Virus record (IMG/VR): IMGVR_UViG_3300045988_115596
Length of the DNA: 16,948 bases
Direction: 5' to 3' (one strand)
Origin: a virus
Position 1 is the first letter of the stretch. Each line of letters opens with the position of its first letter. Below the pieces are notes generated by a model. It was not told the DNA's origin. It ran no database searches and was given only the letters and a program-made list of their open reading frames with translations. The translations under genes and the position numbers were made by a program. Of the stretch, positions 1 to 16,948 are shown piece after piece.

Positions 1-342
1 GGTTTCATCGGCGGCATAGGCGACTGGATAGCCGAACATAAGGGACCTATCAGCTACGACCGCAAGTTGTTGATACCGCATGGCAAGGCCATTATGAGCG
101 GCCTTGCGCAAGGCATAGACGCGGGCTTCAACGGCAAGGTGCGCGCCTCCATAGGCGCTGTGAACGCGGCCATGTCCGACACAGGGTTTCGTGTGAGCGT
201 AGCGGGGGCGGCTCAAACGGGTGGCGTCGTCTACAACACCTATGAGGTGCATATCGACGGCGCGATAAGCGACCCGGACGGCGCGGCCAAGGCCATTGAA
301 CGGCTGCTTGCCGGCCACGCTCGGAGACGGGGCCGCAGATGA
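1..342 (+). CDS. Tape measure protein, C-terminal part (continues the ORF that runs off the 3' end of the window)
   Basis: Position 1 is a codon start in the frame of the ORF beginning at 15278. The translation reads [40 protein letters not shown]..., a typical actinophage TMP C-terminus. The TGA at 340-342 overlaps the next ATG (ATGA). Confidence 0.85.
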
Positions 343-4469: not shown

Positions 4470-5300
4470 CTAGGAGCCAAGCAGCACGGCATCGAACCCG
4501 GCACGTAACCGCGTGTCGGGCATTGCTACGTAGACTTGCGTGGTCTCGACGCTCGCGTGCCCCAGCAAACGGGCTACCAGGAACAGATCATGAGTGGCCG
4601 CGTAAGTGGCCGTGGCGTACCGGTGCCTCAACGAGTGCGCCGCGTACCCGTCCGGCAGCAGATGGCTGATGTGGTCACCGATGTAGGACTCCTCGACATG
4701 GCCGCCGAACCGGCCGGGGAACAGGTAGCCGCGCGCGTCCATGACGATGGTGGCCAGATCGTCCGGCATCGGCACGATGCGCTGCTTGTCTCCCTTGCCT
4801 CGCACGATCAGCGAACGGCCGATGCTGTCGGCCACGACGTCATCGCTGTGGACGCGGGCGATCTCGCCGCGCCGCAGGCCGCACTCGGCCGCAAATCGGA
4901 TCATGAGCTTTTCCGATGGCGTGGCCTTCTCCATCGCGGCCGTAATGTACTGGTCCGGGCATGGCCGGGGATGCGCGTGGGGCTTCTTCACCCGCGGCAC
5001 GTCCAGACTCGGCTCGTCGGCTCGCCGGCCGCTTTTGTGCAGCCAACGGAAAAACGACGAAATGGTGTTCCGGTACGCCTTGCGGGTCTCCGGTTTCCAT
5101 TGTTGTCGCGCAAAGACCTGCACAATCTGCTCCGTGGTCACGTCTTCGGGACCTGATGGCATGAACAGCGCCGCGAGATGCACCATCTTGTATCGACGGC
5201 TTTTGATTGTCTGTGCTGATAGGCCGGCCGCCCTAAGGGTGTCAGTCCACCCTTCGATGCTTTTGCGCCATGGGACCGGTGCGCTGATTTTGTTCCTCAT
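4470..5300 (-). CDS. int: Tyrosine integrase (XerC/D-sized, 276 aa, no arm-binding N-domain)
   Basis: A SAM-like core-binding N-domain is followed by the catalytic signature GLRRGEI ... HSLRHRYAT ... LLGHASVETTQVYV (R, H-x-x-R, H, Y). It sits next to a tRNA-derived att site and starts 24 nt downstream of the repressor stop on the same strand. Confidence 0.92.
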   Translation of the reverse strand: MRNKISAPVPWRKSIEGWTDTLRAAGLSAQTIKSRRYKMVHLAALFMPSGPEDVTTEQIVQVFARQQWKPETRKAYRNTISSFFRWLHKSGRRADEPSLDVPRVKKPHAHPRPCPDQYITAAMEKATPSEKLMIRFAAECGLRRGEIARVHSDDVVADSIGRSLIVRGKGDKQRIVPMPDDLATIVMDARGYLFPGRFGGHVEESYIGDHISHLLPDGYAAHSLRHRYATATYAATHDLFLVARLLGHASVETTQVYVAMPDTRLRAGFDAVLLGS

Positions 5301-5324: not shown

Positions 5325-5735
5325 TCACGCGGCTAAACTGAGCTTGGATAAGCTCAGAAGCCCCATGGATTTGAACCTTGGACCTCTGGTGTCCCCAGAG
5401 GTCCATGGTTCAAATCCATGCCCCGCTACTGATAGGCCGCCGTTTTCGGAATCATCCGAAGCGGCGGTTTTCTTATATCCAAGTAACTCGCCTTGCGTCA
5501 AAGACGGGTTGAGCAATGTTGCTACATCAGTATTAAGGAAATCGGCCGCTGCTTGAGTCTCATTAATAGTCCAGGTAATCTCACTACGCAGCTTCTTAGA
5601 GATAGTCTGCGGTGCAATCCCTAGAGCCTTCGCCAAATCCTTCTTCTGGATATGTCGAGCAGAGATCATCAGATTTACATTCATAGCCACTATGTCTTGA
5701 GCCTTGGCTTGAGGCTGTGCAATTACTGCTGTCAT
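5325..5735 (-). CDS. CI-like XRE-family HTH repressor with a long C-terminal extension that reads through attP and ends ...LSLAA
   Basis: The HTH reads NLMISARHIQKKDLAKALGIAPQTISKKLRSE. The ORF is open from TTG 5750; ATG 5735 (favoured, 7 nt after a TATTAT) and ATG 5684 are alternative starts. It is divergent from a Cro-like gene. The stop is TGA at 5327-5325. Confidence 0.85.
   Translation of the reverse strand: MTAVIAQPQAKAQDIVAMNVNLMISARHIQKKDLAKALGIAPQTISKKLRSEITWTINETQAAADFLNTDVATLLNPSLTQGELLGYKKTAASDDSENGGLSVAGHGFEPWTSGDTRGPRFKSMGLLSLSKLSLAA
5364..5420. repeat. Inverted repeat at attP with 26-bp arms (25/26 complementary) and a 5-nt spacer
   Basis: 5364-5389 (CATGGATTTGAACCTTGGACCTCTGG) pairs with 5395-5420 (CCAGAGGTCCATGGTTCAAATCCATG). 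The only mismatch is 5378/5406. Confidence 0.9.
5394..5428 (+). other. attP core: 3'-terminal 35 nt of a tRNA (Met-type; not a complete tRNA gene)
   Basis: CCCAG-AGGTC-CATGG-TTCAAAT-CCATG-CCCCGCT-A parses as anticodon-stem 3' strand, 5-nt variable loop, a perfect T-arm, acceptor 3' strand and discriminator. No matching 5' acceptor strand or D-arm lies upstream. From memory, CCC at positions 39-41, AGGTC, the TTCAAAT loop and CCCCGC resemble tRNA-Met/fMet. Confidence 0.75.
5437..5474 (+). terminator. Intrinsic terminator downstream of the tRNA 3' fragment (phage-borne replacement terminator for the target tRNA)
   Basis: CCGCCG(tt)TTCGGA-atca-TCCGAA(g)CGGCGG forms a 12-13 bp stem followed by TTTTCTT. 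It lies 9 nt after the tRNA discriminator base and inside the repressor ORF on the opposite strand. Confidence 0.7.
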
Positions 5736-5779
5736 AGCTTCATAATACAACGTAGTTTTATTTTTCTAGGCGTGTCGAA

Positions 5780-5817
5780 TTGACATCGTCACGATTTATA
5801 CGATATGACTATCGTAT
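5780..5817 (+). promoter_or_regulatory. Candidate early lytic promoter and operators of the genetic switch
   Basis: A perfect TTGACA (5780-5785) is followed by 18 nt and TATGAC (5804-5809), which places the transcription start near the A of ATG 5816. Palindromes sharing ACGAT/ATCGT half-sites are ATCGTcACGAT (5785-5795) and ATACGATAtgacTATCGTAT (5798-5817). Confidence 0.45.
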
Positions 5818-6058
5818 GGTTTTAGTCGAATCGCATGGCGATACTTCAGCGCGAGTCCGGAAGCTCATCCGCAAGAATCGCCTCACACAAAAGGACGTAG
5901 CCGCCGAAATTGGCATCAGTCAGCAACTCTTCACCAACAAACTTCACGGCCGAGCAAATTACACGCTCCGAGACCTCAGCCGCATCGCCGAGTTCTTCGA
6001 CGTGAGCCTTGATTACCTCGTCGGCCGTTCAAACGAGCAGAAAGGAAACAAGCGATGA
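5816..6058 (+). CDS. Cro-like XRE-family HTH regulator, 80 aa
   Basis: The HTH reads LTQKDVAAEIGISQQLFTNKLHGRANYTLRDLSRIAEFF. The track start at 5780 is a TTG that forms part of a consensus -35 hexamer. ATG 5816 is in frame and has no SD, so the mRNA is possibly leaderless. Confidence 0.8.
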   Translation: MVLVESHGDTSARVRKLIRKNRLTQKDVAAEIGISQQLFTNKLHGRANYTLRDLSRIAEFFDVSLDYLVGRSNEQKGNKR

Positions 6059-7328: not shown

Positions 7329-7670
7329 ATGGGTTATTCGGTTGATTACAAGCCAACACGCCGACGTGCCAAGAGGACGGTGCCGAAGAACAAGGCCCAG
7401 CGCACGAAGGACATCAAGAACGCCATTCGATGGAATATCAGGCAATTGGAGCATGACACTGATGGAGCGGACACCATTGCGCGTTCCCTTGCCATCAGTC
7501 TGCTTCGACTGAACAAGATCGCACCGACGGCCGACCCTAGCGGCGACCATGTGATGCAGCAGCTTATCAGCGACGGTATCTTGGGCAAGCCCGAGAGGCG
7601 CGGCAGTGTGCAGATTTTCGACCGTGCCGAGTTATTGACATCGCTCAAGGCTTGGGTTGGTGTGCTGTGA
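7329..7670 (+). CDS. Hypothetical basic protein, 113 aa (first gene after the DnaA-box cluster)
   Basis: ACGAGG lies 8 nt before the ATG. The N-terminus is Lys/Arg-rich (KPTRRRAKRTVPKNKAQRTKDIKN). The stop overlaps the next gene's GTG (GTGA). No family was recognised. Confidence 0.65.
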   Translation: MGYSVDYKPTRRRAKRTVPKNKAQRTKDIKNAIRWNIRQLEHDTDGADTIARSLAISLLRLNKIAPTADPSGDHVMQQLISDGILGKPERRGSVQIFDRAELLTSLKAWVGVL

Positions 7671-7876
7671 ACCCACGTGCGAAGCTCACGGCCAAACAGG
7701 CGGCCCTATATCTGGGCGTGAGTGAAAGCCTGTTGCGCAAGTGGCGCGGCGAACATTACGGCCCGGTGTTCTACCGGCCCACGGACGCTCCCAACTGCCC
7801 AGTGCTGTATGAGTTGTCGGACTTGGACATGTTCGTAGCGCAGCGCAAGCGCAAGGCGGCCCAGAGTGCCGCGTAG
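7667..7876 (+). CDS. xis: Excisionase / MerR-like HTH DNA-binding protein (Xis family), 69 aa
   Basis: LTAKQAALYLGVSESLLRKWRGEHYGPVFYR...YELSDLDMFV is a typical Xis/AlpA-type helix-turn-helix. GTG 7667 (GTGA coupling) is preferred over the track's TTG at 7652. Confidence 0.7.
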   Translation: MNPRAKLTAKQAALYLGVSESLLRKWRGEHYGPVFYRPTDAPNCPVLYELSDLDMFVAQRKRKAAQSAA

Positions 7877-8588
7877 GCAAGTAGTCGCCCCGTCAATCCG
7901 TTCGGCCGAGATAGCGGCGTGGGGCAACGACTGTTGGTTGGAGCTGCCCGGCTGCACGAAAGTGGGCACCGAAGACGACCATATAGTGCCACATGCGCAT
8001 GGCGGCAAGGACACCGTGCCGAACCTACGCCGCGCGTGCAAGCATTGCAACGCTTCGCGGCAAGACCGCGTGCTGTATGGCTATGGCTGCCGCTTGCACA
8101 TGATCGTATGCCCGCCTGGCTCATGCGACCGGGAGGCCGTGGACTACATAGCCCAGCACGCGAAGCCAACTGACCCGGTTGTGTCGTGGGCTTCGCTGGC
8201 CGCCGCCATGCGCGTGGACGAAGCGGACATGGAGCAGCGGCGGGCCGTGGCTATGGCATGGTCTGCCGCCTACCGCCAGTTCGCCAAGAGCCGCGCGCCG
8301 TTGGACGTGTGGCTGGTGCGCACCATACCAGCCAGCCGCAAGCACCCGCAGATGCTGGCCGAGTGGATAGCGCTGGACTACGACATACAGGTGCTAGACC
8401 CCGGCTACGCCGAGAGCATGGCACGGGCACGTAACGACATGTACCGGCAGCTGGTGCGCCAGTGGTACGCCCTCCACCTGTCGCAAGAGACGATAGACGC
8501 GAGGCAAGCGGCCCGCCGCCAGCGACTCGCGGCCCTTGGCTTGCGTTCCATGCCATCTTCGGTGCCTTCATCGCGCCCGGAATGGTGA
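7866..8588 (+). CDS. HNH endonuclease fused to a ~165-aa C-terminal domain with a degenerate P-loop-like motif, 240 aa
   Basis: The HNH/zinc motif is CWLELPGC...DDHIVPHAHGGKDTVPNLRRACKHCN. The gene lies directly upstream of terS/terL, as in HNH-dependent cos phages. The C-terminal part begins HMIVCPPGSCDRE, resembling a Walker-A GPPGSGKS with the Lys-Ser lost. Confidence 0.8.
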   Translation: MPRRQVVAPSIRSAEIAAWGNDCWLELPGCTKVGTEDDHIVPHAHGGKDTVPNLRRACKHCNASRQDRVLYGYGCRLHMIVCPPGSCDREAVDYIAQHAKPTDPVVSWASLAAAMRVDEADMEQRRAVAMAWSAAYRQFAKSRAPLDVWLVRTIPASRKHPQMLAEWIALDYDIQVLDPGYAESMARARNDMYRQLVRQWYALHLSQETIDARQAARRQRLAALGLRSMPSSVPSSRPEW

Positions 8589-15288: not shown

Positions 15289-16948
15289 CGCGATAATGTC
15301 CGTGAGAATCACGGGCAACAGCGACGACGCCGTGAAGGCGTTCCAGAAGGCCACCACGAAGGCGGCGGCGTTCGGTTCGTTCATGGGCGGCGCTGCCCTC
15401 AAGGGCGTTACCGCCCTATGGGACAAGGTAAGTTCGTTCGGCAGCGCCGTGATGGACATGAGCGACAGCACGGACAAGTTCGTTTCGACGATGAACTTCG
15501 CCGGCATCGACACCGCCAACGTCGAAAAGGCAAGCAAGGCGGCGCGCGACTACGCGGACCGCACAGTGTATGATCTGTCCACCATCCAGAACACCACGGC
15601 GCAGCTCGCCGCGAACGGCATCAAGGACTACACCGGCCTTACAGAGGCCGCCGGCAACCTGAACGCCGTGGCCGGCGGCAACGCCGACACCTTCGGCTCC
15701 GTGGCCATGGTGCTCACCCAGACGGCCGGCGCGGGCAAGTTGACGACGGAGAACTGGAACCAGTTGGCCGACGCCATCCCCGGCGCGTCCGGCAAGCTCC
15801 AGGAAGCCATGAAGGCCAACGGCGCGTACACGGGCAATTTCAGGGACGCGATGGAGAAAGGCGAGATCAGCGCCGACGAGTTCAACCAGGCGATTATGCA
15901 GCTCGGCATGAGCGACGTCGCCAAGGAAGCCGCAAGCAGCACCAAGACCATGGAAGGCGCTTTGGGCAACTTGGAGGCCGCGATCACCGGCGGGCTGACG
16001 GACGCGTTCAACCTCATAAAGCCAGCGGTCACGGGCGCGTTGACCGAAGCCGGAGACCGTATCAGCCAGTTCAGCCAAACCGCCACCAACGGTTTGAAGT
16101 CGTTCATCCAGGGCGTGAGCGACACGGGCGCGTTCCAATCGCTCTCAGGCATGGTGTCAGGCATCGGCGGCGCGTTGTCCTCGTTGGGCGGCGCGTTCTC
16201 GAGCATCGCCGCGACGATAGCGCCGGGCTTGCAAGGCCTGTCCGACGCGGGCGGCATCGGGACGGCCGTGGGCGAGGCGTTCACCGGCGCGGCCGGGATC
16301 ATCCAGGCGTTGGCGGACAAACTCACCCAGTTTGGCGATTGGGTCAGCGCGAACGCGGAACCCATCAGCGGCGCTCTTGTGGCCATCGGCGGCGGTTTCG
16401 CCGCGTTCAAGGTGGCAAGCGTCATCAGCGCCGTGGTATCCGCGTTGCAGGGCTTCAGCCTGGCGTCCACCGCCGCGTCAATCGGACAATGGGCGTTGAA
16501 CGCGGCCATGAACGCCAACCCGATAATGATCGTGGTCACGGCCATTGGCGCGCTGGTGGCGGCGTTGGTGTGGTTCTTCACTCAGACCGAGACGGGCCGG
16601 CAGATTTGGAGCCAGTTCACCGCGTTTCTGGGCAATTGCGTGAACAGCATCATCGCGTTCTTCCAGTCGTTGCCGGGCCGTATCGGCGCGTTCTTCCAAA
16701 ACGCAGCCGACGGCGCAAGGAACACGTGGAACAGCGTCGTGGATTGGTTCAGGGGATTGCCGGGCCGTATCCTCAACGCTCTGGGTGACGTCGGTTCCAT
16801 CCTTGTGAACGCCGGTTCGAGCATCATTGACGGTTTTCTCTCAGGTCTCAAGGGCGCTTGGGGCAAAGTGACGGGTTTCATCGGCGGCATAGGCGACTGG
16901 ATAGCCGAACATAAGGGACCTATCAGCTACGACCGCAAGTTGTTGATA
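15278..16948 (+). CDS. Tape measure protein, N-terminal 557 codons (open at the window end; continues at 76-342 for about 645 aa in total)
   Basis: GGAGGAGG lies upstream of ATG 15278. The TMP core reads [26 protein letters not shown]...[39 protein letters not shown]. It has Ala/Gly-rich repeats and hydrophobic segments ([20 protein letters not shown]). I read no stop through 16948. Confidence 0.88.
16874..16948 (+). repeat. 75-bp terminal duplication of window bases 1-75 (circular-contig overlap)
   Basis: ggtttcatcggcggcataggcgactgg...cgcaagttgttgata is identical at both ends. It lies inside, and in frame with, the TMP coding sequence. Confidence 0.95.

What the first reader, a model, noticed from the sequence alone, without database searches (positions are those of the whole stretch)
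5325..5750. attP lies inside the repressor ORF and the viral-form repressor ends in an ssrA-like ...LSLAA tail: predicted integration-dependent immunity switch
Seen in the sequence: the XRE repressor ORF (minus strand) does not stop after its HTH domain. It reads on through the phage-borne terminator hairpin (5437-5467) and the 35-nt tRNA 3'-end block (5428-5394, codons 108-119 = VAGHGFEPWTSG). It then continues for 66 more nt and ends ...GLLSLSKLSLAA-TGA at 5325, 24 nt upstream of the integrase ATG on the same strand.

Established knowledge: C-terminal LAA-type tails are the ClpXP degron of tmRNA tags. In mycobacteriophages BPs, Brujita and Charlie (Broussard et al. 2013), attP sits within the repressor gene. 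Integration there truncates the gene, removes such a tag, and converts an unstable viral repressor into a stable prophage repressor.

Inference: recombination anywhere in the tRNA block replaces everything after codon 119 with host tRNA sequence. If the target is a tRNA-Met with the canonical CUCAUAA anticodon loop, the next codons become TTA-TGA (Leu-stop). The prophage form would then lack the 22-residue tail DTRGPRFKSMGLLSLSKLSLAA. Integration would also separate int from the rep promoter.

To my knowledge this switch has only been characterised in mycobacteriophages.
Basis: partly seen in the sequence, partly recalled or inferred. Interest (0 to 1): 0.88.

Follow-up and report, generated by a model that had tools for sequence, protein, structure and literature searches.

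The report
Bifidobacterium phage integration-dependent immunity switch
In this small gut Bifidobacterium phage the integration site lies inside the repressor gene, so integrating into the host initiator tRNA gene removes a 22-residue tail ending in LAA; the design is real and well supported, but it was already predicted for close relatives in 2018.

Summary
The window is a complete circular phage genome of 16,873 bp. Its XRE-type repressor ORF (5325-5735, minus strand, 136 aa from the ATG) reads through a 36-nt copy of the 3' part of a tRNA-Met gene (5394-5429). It then runs 22 more codons to ...KLSLAA-TGA, 24 nt before a small Xer-like integrase gene.

Public data hold both predicted forms. 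Viral contigs carry the full-length ORF. That stop codon comes from the antisense strand of the tRNA anticodon loop.

Across five unrelated tail sequences the ORF always ends L-(A/T)-A-stop. The last Ala is written with all four synonymous codons, and all three stop codons occur at the same position. The tail is therefore translated and under selection.

The integrase is 40% identical to the integrase (gp32) of Cluster G mycobacteriophages, the group that includes BPs.

The mechanism is integration-dependent immunity, but protein stability was not tested. Mavrich et al. 2018 already predicted this system for the related B. breve prophages Bb423phi2 and 689b-1, so this is a new member of a known kind.

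One extra finding is new to my knowledge. attP is a 57-bp quasi-palindrome, and its single mismatch is almost always "perfected" in prophage attL junctions.

The parts
4470..5300 (-). int: 276-aa tyrosine integrase with only two domains (SAM-like core-binding plus catalytic) and no arm-binding domain
   Evidence: Pfam Phage_integrase plus Phage_int_SAM_4. Aligns end to end with XerC/XerA models, below their cut-offs. 40% identity over 97% of its length to gp32 of Cluster G mycobacteriophages such as Angel, E 2e-48.
5325..5735 (-). rep, viral form: 136-aa HTH (XRE/Cro-C1 type) repressor including its stop codon. The ORF finder starts it at TTG 5750.
   Evidence: phrog_4583, transcriptional repressor. 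P0001 is the same 136-aa form at 98% identity.
5328..5393 (-). 22-codon tail present only in the viral form, DTRGPRFKSMGLLSLSKLSLAA. It is replaced by a single host-encoded Leu plus stop after integration.
   Evidence: Terminal L-(A/T)-A-stop is kept in five tail families, with synonymous codon changes and all three stop codons.
5394..5429 (.). attP common core: 36 nt identical to the 3' part of the host tRNA-Met gene (3' strand of the anticodon stem through the first C of CCA). tRNA sense is on the + strand.
   Evidence: attR contigs align to the window down to 5394 and an attL contig aligns from 5429. Matches 36 of the 39 nt of the published Bb423phi2/689b-1 core.
5364..5420 (.). 57-bp quasi-palindrome. 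Arm I (5395-5420) lies in the tRNA block. Arm II (5364-5389) is its inverted copy and encodes tail residues TRGPRFKSM. The spacer is 5 nt and there is one mismatch.
   Evidence: Conserved in all relatives. The arms co-vary in L016. Absent from the mycobacterial, Gordonia and Curtobacterium counterparts examined.
5431..5472 (+). Phage-borne intrinsic terminator for the tRNA that is rebuilt at attR. It lies inside the rep coding sequence (residues KKTAASDDSENGG).
   Evidence: dG -24.5 kcal/mol, z -4.1, followed by UUUUCUU. Relatives keep equivalent hairpins with different sequences.
5338..5357 (-). Small hairpin CTGAGCT-TATCCA-AGCTCAG inside the tail codons (LSLSKLS), followed by TTTAG. It may act as an attenuator between rep and int.
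   Evidence: The stem is conserved while the loop varies (K/E change, 3-nt insertion). Its function is inferred only.
5798..5817 (.). Perfect palindrome ATACGATA-N4-TATCGTAT between rep and the divergent HTH gene. It is a candidate operator, located 13 nt downstream of a TTGACA at 5779-5784.
   Evidence: unique in the genome, 0.01 expected by chance. Repressor binding was not tested.
5816..6058 (+). Divergently transcribed Cro-like HTH gene: 80 aa from ATG 5816. The ORF finder starts it at TTG 5780.
   Evidence: Called as an 80-aa gene in L001-L004.

Best explanation
This is an integration-dependent immunity switch of the BPs/Brujita type in a 16.9-kb temperate Bifidobacterium siphovirus.

In the free circular genome, a leftward promoter upstream of rep transcribes rep and then int. 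The viral repressor (136 aa) carries a 22-residue C-terminal extension ending in LAA. That extension is inferred to target the protein to ClpXP or a similar protease, so immunity cannot be established from the free genome.

The small armless integrase recombines the 36-bp core inside rep with the 3' part of the host tRNA-Met gene. This tRNA looks like the initiator type.

After integration, the repressor-side junction (attR) rebuilds the tRNA from the phage-borne T-arm, acceptor strand and terminator. The repressor ORF now runs into the antisense of the anticodon stem-loop and ends ...WTSG-L-stop (115 aa). It has lost the tail and is inferred to be stable and active. int is moved to the other end of the prophage (attL), behind host DNA and away from the rep promoter.

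Shown here: the anatomy, both natural forms, the exact junctions, selection on the tail end, and integrase homology.

Inferred: proteolysis of the long form, repression by the short form at the palindromic operator candidate, and the dependence of lysogeny on integration.
For: Junctions. L001-L004 read ...CTCTGGG|TTATGAGCCCAG... with tRNA-Met(CAT) on the opposite strand. Their repressor is 99% identical to the window's and ends WTSGL. Homology to the window stops at 5394 in attR contigs and starts at 5429 in an attL contig.

Two forms. 117-aa prophage forms occur in Bifidobacterium isolate genomes next to metA, with a tRNA-Met antisense at the 3' end of rep. 119-141-aa viral forms occur in circular or concatemeric contigs. 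The window itself has a 75-nt terminal repeat located elsewhere in the genome.

Tail selection. Seven sequence variants of the final three codons, across five unrelated tail families, all encode L-(A/T)-A-stop. The last Ala is written GCG, GCA, GCT and GCC. The stops are TGA, TAA and TAG. Sequence downstream diverges. In L016 arm II is read in another frame and the tail still ends ILAA. LAA is the end of only 1 of 715 stop-terminated segments in the window. The variable base of arm II is A or C in most copies, and both give Arg codons.

Cassette. int-rep-cro spans 1.6 kb. int is Xer-like and armless and 40% identical to the gp32 integrase of Cluster G mycobacteriophages. Angel, EricDab and Barebow have the same layout.

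Literature. The defining features are in PMC3694055 and PMC4557955. The same prediction for Bb423phi2 and 689b-1 is in PMC6109161.
Against: No stability, immunity or ClpXP data exist for any Bifidobacterium member. Mavrich et al. saw no excision or induction of Bb423phi2.

About a third of the relatives end in LTA rather than LAA, and it is unknown whether LTA works as a degron.

I could not retrieve the host's own ssrA tag for comparison.

The integrase C-terminus (...DAVLLGS) is not an obvious tag and varies among relatives, whereas BPs Int is tagged.

A weak excisionase-like HTH ORF (7652-7876, phrog_66, E 8e-5) means that absence of an RDF is not established.

Part of the tail sequence is also constrained at the DNA level by the palindrome and a hairpin. 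Only the last 3-4 codons give clean evidence of protein-level selection.
Confidence: 0.8

Rival explanations
1. The extension is a passenger. The ORF merely stays open across attP DNA that is conserved for integrase binding and hairpin formation. The long and short repressors behave the same, and integration changes only gene order.
For: 64% of 22-codon windows in this genome have no stop. Two thirds of the tail is encoded by the palindrome arm and a conserved hairpin, which are DNA- or RNA-level constraints. The same tail DNA persists unchanged in attL junctions, where it is no longer fused to rep.
Against: The last Ala uses all four synonymous codons with no replacement. The penultimate residue is only Ala or Thr. 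Three different stop codons sit at the same position, and sequence diverges directly after them. Unrelated tails (L016, L017) also end LAA, and so does the L122/L123 type in the frame a tRNA-like arm I gives, as read in L123. LAA ends are otherwise absent from the window.
Confidence: 0.08
2. The tail matters, but not as a ClpXP degron. One option is that the hydrophobic extension blocks oligomerisation or operator binding. Another acts at the RNA level: the 26-bp hairpin in the rep-int mRNA is cleaved or stalls ribosomes. That would uncouple int from rep and could create non-stop messages that are tagged by tmRNA.
For: The 3' part of the rep mRNA is predicted to fold very stably (dG -94 kcal/mol for 181 nt, z -8.2), with a long perfect helix. 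The palindrome arms co-vary in L016. The palindrome is absent from the mycobacterial, Gordonia and Curtobacterium systems, so it adds something of its own.
Against: Selection is visible on the very last residues and on the stop position, which an RNA-only mechanism does not need. In BPs both forms bind DNA alike, and the difference lies in proteolysis (PMC4557955).
Confidence: 0.1
3. The window is a false circle, built by an assembler that joined the two ends of an integrated prophage through the 36-39-bp direct repeat. On this view the long ORF never exists in one molecule.
For: Prophage ends share the core repeat, and many related contigs break at it.
Against: The assembly's terminal repeat lies in a tail-gene region, not at att. 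Prophage attL nearly always has T or G at the variable arm-I position, yet the window and 11 other attP contexts have A next to the phage spacer. Joining attR to attL cannot produce that combination at normal k-mer sizes. An independent 22.9-kb contig (L018) holds more than one genome length with an intact attP.
Confidence: 0.02

Closest known systems
Bifidobacterium breve prophages Bb423phi2 and 689b-1 (Mavrich et al. 2018, Sci Rep 8:12772, PMC6109161)
   Same: Same host genus and the same attB: the tRNA-Met next to metA. The published core is TGGTAGCGGGGCATGGATTTGAACC(A/T)TGGACCTCTGGGT. Same small genome, about 17-18 kb at 61% GC. int lies at attL and rep at attR. In-silico circularisation gave a longer repressor with an ssrA-like end. 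The viral form of that type is in my data as L017 (131 aa versus 113 aa).
   Different: The window is the natural excised circular form, not a reconstruction. Its repressor is about 82-85% identical, its integrase about 64% identical, and its tail is different (22 residues ...GLLSLSKLSLAA versus 19 residues ...PRLILSLAA). In the parts I read, the paper does not mention the palindromic structure of attP, and it detected no excision.
Integration-dependent immunity of mycobacteriophages BPs, Brujita and Charlie (Broussard et al. 2013; PMC3694055, PMC4557955)
   Same: A three-gene int-rep-cro cassette with attP inside rep, overlapping a tRNA 3' end. The viral repressor is longer; by coincidence it is also 136 aa in BPs. 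The tag is C-terminal. The integrase is armless, and here it is 40% identical to Cluster G gp32. The antisense T-arm gives the same G-F/L-E-P signature in the repressor.
   Different: Different host phylogeny and a different tRNA. The tail here ends in a canonical LAA, whereas the Cluster G homologue Angel gp33 ends ...DKAS. No clear tag on Int. attP carries an inverted second copy of the tRNA arm, which is absent in Angel. The rep-cro intergenic region is about 80 bp rather than about 200 bp. No experiments.
Small-genome actinophages with predicted integration-dependent immunity: Gordonia Cluster CW such as Jeanie (PMC5559632), and the best isolated-phage integrase hits Gordonia EricDab and Curtobacterium Barebow
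   Same: Genomes of 16-18 kb. The best integrase matches among isolated phages are about 41% identical. Same rep-int order with a divergent HTH gene. EricDab Rep ends ...PPWAA and its Int ends ...WAAAA.
   Different: Other hosts and other tRNAs. No palindromic second arm.
Lambda sib retroregulation of int
   Same: In both, integration physically separates a cis element from a gene, so that the viral and prophage states express it differently.
   Different: In lambda the element is an RNase III site downstream of int that acts on int mRNA. [quoted passage not shown] Any RNA-level role of the hairpin here is speculation.

Membership tests
Integration-dependent immunity system (Broussard et al. 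2013) | attP lies inside the repressor ORF, so integration truncates the gene | tested here: met
   attR contigs L001-L004 lose homology to the window at 5394, inside the ORF. The ORF then ends TTA TGA in tRNA antisense.
Integration-dependent immunity system (Broussard et al. 2013) | Two natural repressor forms: a longer viral form and a shorter prophage form | tested here: met
   136-aa P0001 and the window versus 115-aa P0002. 117-aa forms occur in Bifidobacterium genomes. Several other viral/prophage pairs were found.
Integration-dependent immunity system (Broussard et al. 2013) | [quoted passage not shown] | tested here: met
   Met at sequence level only. The end ...LAA (LTA in some relatives) is conserved through synonymous changes in five tail families. 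Degradation itself was not tested.
Integration-dependent immunity system (Broussard et al. 2013) | Compact cassette: rep and int co-directional and adjacent, with a Cro-like gene divergent from rep | tested here: met
   int 4470-5300(-), rep 5325-5735(-), HTH gene 5816-6058(+), spanning 1.6 kb.
Integration-dependent immunity system (Broussard et al. 2013) | Small tyrosine integrase without an arm-binding domain, related to the BPs/Brujita integrases | tested here: met
   276 aa, with SAM-like plus catalytic domains only. 40% identity over 97% coverage to Cluster G gp32, E 2e-48.
Integration-dependent immunity system (Broussard et al. 2013) | Integrase also carries a C-terminal degradation signal | tested here: inconclusive
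   The window Int ends ...AGFDAVLLGS. Relatives end ...AAVRLI...AAVRLDV...AAVLLSA. There is no conserved AA end. A second int in L123 ends ...RLAA and EricDab Int ends ...WAAAA.
Integration-dependent immunity system (Broussard et al. 2013) | No excisionase or recombination directionality factor | tested here: inconclusive
   The ORF at 7652-7876 gives weak hits to phrog_66 'excisionase and transcriptional regulator' and to phrog_25900 (E about 8e-5), and no NCBIfam hit. Its homologue in L005 carries Pfam HTH_17. It sits next to the packaging genes, so its role is unclear.
Integration-dependent immunity system (Broussard et al. 2013) | The viral form is unstable and inactive, the prophage form is stable and confers immunity, and lysogeny requires integration | not testable with these tools
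   Needs protein half-life, immunity and int-mutant experiments.
tRNA-Met-integrating small bifidoprophages (Bb423phi2/689b-1 group, Mavrich et al. 2018) | [quoted passage not shown] | tested here: met
   The 36-nt core of the window lies inside the published 39-nt core. In L005 and L006 the gene after rep (which overlaps the tRNA-Met) has the Pfam HTS (homoserine O-succinyltransferase) domain; read as metA.
tRNA-Met-integrating small bifidoprophages (Bb423phi2/689b-1 group, Mavrich et al. 2018) | Siphovirus-type genome of about 17-18 kb and about 61% GC, with shared gene order | tested here: met
   16,873 bp at 61.3% GC. Gene order (capsid-protease fusion, portal, HNH, tape measure, amidase, int, rep) is shared with L005, L017 and L018, with 75-80% DNA identity in structural genes.

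The most novel reading that the evidence does not exclude
In this Bifidobacterium phage family, attP is a 57-65-bp quasi-palindrome. It consists of the tRNA T-arm block plus an inverted copy that also encodes part of the tail. Its single mismatch behaves asymmetrically. The tRNA-like base (A) is kept in 12 of 13 attP contexts, in 54 of 54 empty attB sites and in all attR sites examined. In 23 of 25 prophage attL junctions the base has changed, and in 21 of those it is the exact complement of the other arm, which makes the palindrome perfect.

The most novel reading is that this templated 'perfection' of attL is a one-way lock, or is selected as one. It would stabilise lysogens made by an armless, directionless integrase, and so would supply the directionality control that such systems lack.

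The dull alternative is neutral quasi-palindrome mutagenesis in old, vertically inherited prophages.
Probability: 0.15. Interest if true: 0.65.

Novelty: new member of a known kind. Interest (0 to 1): 0.33.

Why it matters
The finding shows, from natural sequences rather than in-silico reconstruction, that both states of an integration-dependent immunity switch coexist in human-gut Bifidobacterium populations. It also shows that the degron-like end of the viral repressor is under purifying selection.

This supports the view that these 17-kb bifidophages are active temperate phages rather than cryptic remnants, which was an open point in the 2018 study. It also extends the evidence for this minimal three-gene switch beyond soil actinobacteria.

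Practically, the cassette is a candidate single-copy integration vector and synthetic switch for bifidobacteria, targeting a conserved tRNA-Met site.

The conceptual advance is modest, because the mechanism and its presence in this phage group were already proposed.

Tried and rejected
1. A megablast of the int-rep region against the INPHARED phage records found nothing. Protein-level searches were needed.

2. The genome-contig scan used the short pattern GGACCTCTGG-N3-10-CCAGAGGTCC, which was too unspecific. Of 24 hits, 23 were chance palindromes in unrelated taxa. Only L044, an attL in a B. angulatum MAG, was useful.

3. I first read L011 and L012 as attP-int cassettes lacking a fused repressor, which would have argued against the model. 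Their upstream hairpin turned out to be the host tRNA terminator, which also flanks 54 empty attB sites. They are attL junctions.

4. I tried to place the crossover inside the core. L016 compared with P0017/P0018 suggests it lies on the T-loop/acceptor side of the variable arm-I base. The attP/attL asymmetry suggests it lies on the anticodon side of that base. L123, which looked decisive, has a second divergent integrase gene next to the site and is not a clean junction. The position is unresolved.

5. I tried to obtain the Bifidobacterium ssrA tag through tmRNA-integrated prophage ends. The Bifidobacterium contigs stop before the tmRNA coding part, and the two tmRNAs recovered belong to other organisms.

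6. Rfam gave only meaningless microRNA-type hits on the palindrome. The promoter scan found no consensus promoter.

7. Inverted spacers in L078 and L086 could indicate integrase-mediated flipping. Both contigs end inside the palindrome, so I treat them as possible assembly artefacts.

8. The papers by Broussard et al. 2013 and Ventura et al. 2005 are not in the library. Lunt and Hatfull 2016 appears there only as a citation with no PMC id. The defining features were taken from the open addendum and the 2015 BPs repressor paper.
Full report
**What is in the window**

The window carries a 75-nt direct terminal repeat. It is therefore a circular assembly of 16,873 bp, at 61.3% GC. Gene content and order match the small tRNA-Met-integrated Bifidobacterium prophages: capsid-protease fusion, portal, HNH, tape measure, amidase and holin.

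The region of the finding holds three genes:
- a 276-aa tyrosine integrase (4470-5300, minus strand);
- an HTH repressor ORF (5325-5735 from the ATG, or 5750 from the TTG listed by the ORF finder, minus strand);
- a divergent Cro-like HTH gene (5816-6058, plus strand).

**Check of the observation**

The repressor ORF does run past its HTH domain. It passes through a hairpin region and through VAGHGFEPWTSG (codons 108-119 in 141-codon numbering, 5429-5394). It then continues for 22 codons to ...GLLSLSKLSLAA-TGA (stop at 5325-5327), 24 nt before the integrase ATG.

The tRNA identity block is 36 nt, not 35.

The hairpin at about 5431-5472 folds on the + strand, which is the tRNA sense strand. Its dG is -24.5 kcal/mol (z -4.1) and UUUUCUU follows it. 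This fits a phage-borne terminator for the rebuilt tRNA.

An open stretch of 22 codons is not remarkable in this genome, since 64% of such windows have no stop. An LAA end is remarkable: 1 of 715 stop-terminated segments, and that one is this ORF.

Codons 121-129 are encoded by an inverted copy of the tRNA block. The arms are 5364-5389 and 5395-5420, 26 nt each, 96% complementary, with a 5-nt spacer. This palindrome explains ARAGORN's spurious 94-nt 'tRNA-Gln' and the meaningless microRNA-type Rfam hits.

**Integrated and free forms in public data**

A protein search with the repressor returned two length classes.
- Full-length forms end ...VAGHGFEPWTSGDTRGPRFKSMGLLSLSKLSLAA, or ...ELILTA, ...KLILAA, or ...PRLILSLAA.
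- Short forms end ...VAGHGFEPWTSGL. They include P0002 (115 aa, 99% identical to the window protein) and P0011 and P0013 (117 aa, from NCBI Bifidobacterium genomes, one named B. breve).

Four metagenome contigs carrying P0002 read ...GAACCATGGACCTCTGGG|TTATGAGCCCAGCGAGCTACC.... ARAGORN calls a tRNA-Met (CAT) on the opposite strand across that junction. The stop codon is the antisense of U33-C34-A35 of the anticodon loop.

By blastn, these attR contigs match the window from 6842 down to exactly 5394. An attL contig (L045) matches from exactly 5429 down to 1975. The segment 5394-5429 is therefore the duplicated core.

In L005 and L006 the tRNA is followed by a gene with the HTS domain, which is metA, and then the ATP synthase operon. 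This is the site reported for Bb423phi2 and 689b-1.

The tRNA has a C1xU72 mismatch and three G-C pairs in the anticodon stem. By established criteria it is the initiator tRNA. This is my reading of the sequence, not a tool result.

In attL junctions, int is preceded by the palindrome, the tRNA 3' fragment and the host terminator. Integration therefore does separate int from the repressor promoter.

**Is the tail translated and selected?**

I collected the 3' ends of the ORF from the window, from IMG/VR contigs found with a palindrome pattern, from contigs found with the integrase, and from contigs encoding the homologous proteins.

Within the main family the last codons read as follows:
- TTA GCC GCG TGA
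- TTA GCC GCA TGA
- TTA GCC GCT TAA
- TTA GCG GCC TGA or TAA
- TTA ACC GCT TAA
- TTA ACG GCT TAG

The final Ala is written with all four codons and is never replaced. The penultimate residue is Ala or Thr. The preceding Leu is invariant within this family. All three stop codons occur at the same position, and the sequence diverges directly after them.

Three unrelated tails behave alike:
- L017, the viral form of the Bb423phi2 type, ends ...PRLILSLAA.
- L016 has different arms, a 10-nt spacer and arm II read in another frame, and ends ...SAYILAA.
- The L122/L123 type ends ...DFGFTLAA in the frame that a tRNA-like arm I gives.

This is the signature of purifying selection on a C-terminal L-A/T-A. 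The rest of the tail is confounded. It is encoded by the palindrome arm and by a small conserved hairpin (5338-5357), so conservation there may act at the DNA or RNA level.

**The integrase and the family**

The integrase has only a SAM-like core-binding domain and a catalytic domain. It aligns end to end with Xer-type models, below their cut-offs.

Among isolated phages its relatives are almost all actinophages. It is 41% identical to the integrases of the small-genome Gordonia phage EricDab and Curtobacterium phage Barebow. It is 40% identical over 97% of its length to gp32 of Cluster G mycobacteriophages such as Angel and Liefie, which is the BPs group.

Those phages have the same rep-int order with a divergent HTH gene. 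Their repressors contain the same antisense T-arm signature (GFEP or GLEP). They end ...DKAS (Angel)...PPWAA (EricDab) and ...RRAS (Barebow).

The defining features of integration-dependent immunity were taken from PMC3694055 and PMC4557955:
- a three-gene cassette;
- attP inside rep;
- a tagged viral repressor;
- a tagged armless integrase;
- no xis.

Five structural features are met here. The integrase tag and the absence of an RDF are inconclusive. The functional features cannot be tested with these tools.

**What is already known**

Mavrich et al. 2018 (PMC6109161) described the ~18-kb prophages Bb423phi2 and 689b-1 at this same tRNA-Met. They noted int at attL and rep at attR. By in-silico circularisation they showed a viral repressor with 18 extra residues that include an ssrA-like tag. 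They stated that these prophages resemble integration-dependent immunity systems, and they detected no excision.

About half of the Gordonia phages with a mapped attP are predicted to use the same system (PMC5559632).

What the present window adds is modest:
- a natural excised genome;
- natural pairs of long and short forms;
- codon-level evidence of selection on the tag;
- a distinct tail and integrase subtype, with the integrase about 64% identical to the Bb423phi2 type.

**An unexplained extra: the quasi-palindrome**

Arm I is the tRNA block and arm II is its inverted copy. They are conserved in every relative, and in L016 they co-vary at several positions. No such second arm exists in Angel, EricDab or Barebow.

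Each arm has one variable base: x in GAACC[x]TGG (tRNA position 51) and y in GGTCCA[y]GG. The base x distributes as follows.

| Site | Base at x |
|---|---|
| attP (repressor upstream) | A, the tRNA base, in 12 of 13 contexts |
| Empty attB, commonest host type | A in 54 of 54 |
| attR | A in all sites seen |
| attL | not A in 23 of 25; exact complement of y in 21 |

Fisher's test for attP against attL gives p = 4e-7, although the contigs are not independent. The published attL and attR of Bb423phi2 show the same difference.

The base y is A or C in most copies, and both give Arg codons.

I could not fix the crossover position (see Tried and rejected). My working explanation has two parts. The mismatch is corrected by templated, quasi-palindrome mutation in attL, where nothing constrains arm I. 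Selection keeps the tRNA base in attP, either because arm I is donated to the tRNA or because it must match attB. Whether the corrected attL also hinders excision is an open and testable idea.

**Verdict**

Proteolysis is inferred.

It is a new member of a known kind, already predicted for sister prophages. Interest is moderate to low, with a small upside from the attP palindrome asymmetry.

Noticed in passing
window 1-75 and 16874-16948: A 75-nt direct terminal repeat shows that the window is a circular assembly of a complete 16,873-bp phage genome (61.3% GC). The closure point lies in a structural-gene region, not at att.
   Followed up: yes
window 5364-5420; attL loci L044-L124: The single mismatch of the attP quasi-palindrome is 'perfected' in prophage attL junctions (21 of 25). 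attP (12 of 13), empty attB (54 of 54) and attR keep the tRNA base. No explanation was established. Templated quasi-palindrome correction is the leading idea.
   Followed up: partly
window 5336-5429 (+): ARAGORN reports a 94-nt 'tRNA-Gln (ttg)' here. It is an artefact of the tRNA 3' fragment plus its inverted copy and the neighbouring hairpin. No real tRNA gene is present.
   Followed up: yes
window 5426-5431; L001 1410-1416: The phage copy of the tRNA 3' end reads ...CCCCGCTAC-TG instead of ...CTACCA. In lysogens of this subtype the rebuilt tRNA-Met therefore has no encoded CCA (ARAGORN 75 nt versus 77 nt in L005 and L006) and would need CCA addition. Some relatives carry TGG (CCA).
   Followed up: partly
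L122 2360-2450: This attP context has a repressor upstream, but arm I carries the 'perfected' sequence plus one extra G. The repressor frame shifts and ends ...GAPSG instead of ...TLAA. It may be a natural untagged variant or a dead-end product.
   Followed up: partly
L123 899-2767: Two divergent Xer-like integrase genes flank one palindromic site whose left arm has a different T-arm (ACAGG/CCTGT). The left integrase ends ...ATRLAA, a tag-like C-terminus. This may be a tandem or composite element.
   Followed up: partly
L133, L135 and five other loci: A different integrated element occupies the same tRNA-Met. Its junction lies further into the gene, after TTATGAGCCCA on the anticodon side. A larger integrase-like ORF starts about 200 nt inside. 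At least two kinds of element therefore target this tRNA.
   Followed up: no
window 5798-5817 and 5779-5784: A unique perfect palindrome ATACGATA-TGAC-TATCGTAT lies 13 nt downstream of a TTGACA hexamer and overlaps the ATG of the Cro-like gene. It is a candidate operator and rightward promoter. A TATTAT at 5742-5747 (minus strand) ends 6 nt before the repressor ATG, which suggests a leaderless rep mRNA.
   Followed up: partly
window 7652-7876 (+): A 74-aa ORF gives weak excisionase/HTH_17-type hits (phrog_66, E 8e-5). It sits just upstream of an HNH/small-terminase-like gene (7866-8588). It could be an RDF, which integration-dependent systems are said to lack, or a packaging-related DNA-binding protein.
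   Followed up: partly
L018 (22.9-kb contig): The contig contains the capsid and portal genes twice, about 16.6 kb apart, with an intact attP between them. It is a concatemer or over-circularised assembly of a related phage, and gives independent evidence for free replicating genomes.
   Followed up: partly
L078 and L086, first 110 nt: The palindrome spacer is in the opposite orientation (TGTCC instead of GGACA). Both contigs end inside the palindrome, so this may be an assembly artefact rather than integrase-mediated inversion.
   Followed up: no
proteins P0033-P0041: The same core-plus-tail module (VAGHGFEPWTSGDTRGPRFKSM...LAA) is fused to HTH domains only 37-50% identical to the window repressor. 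Some of these lack the linker and terminator segment. The attP-tail-int module therefore moves between different immunity specificities.
   Followed up: partly
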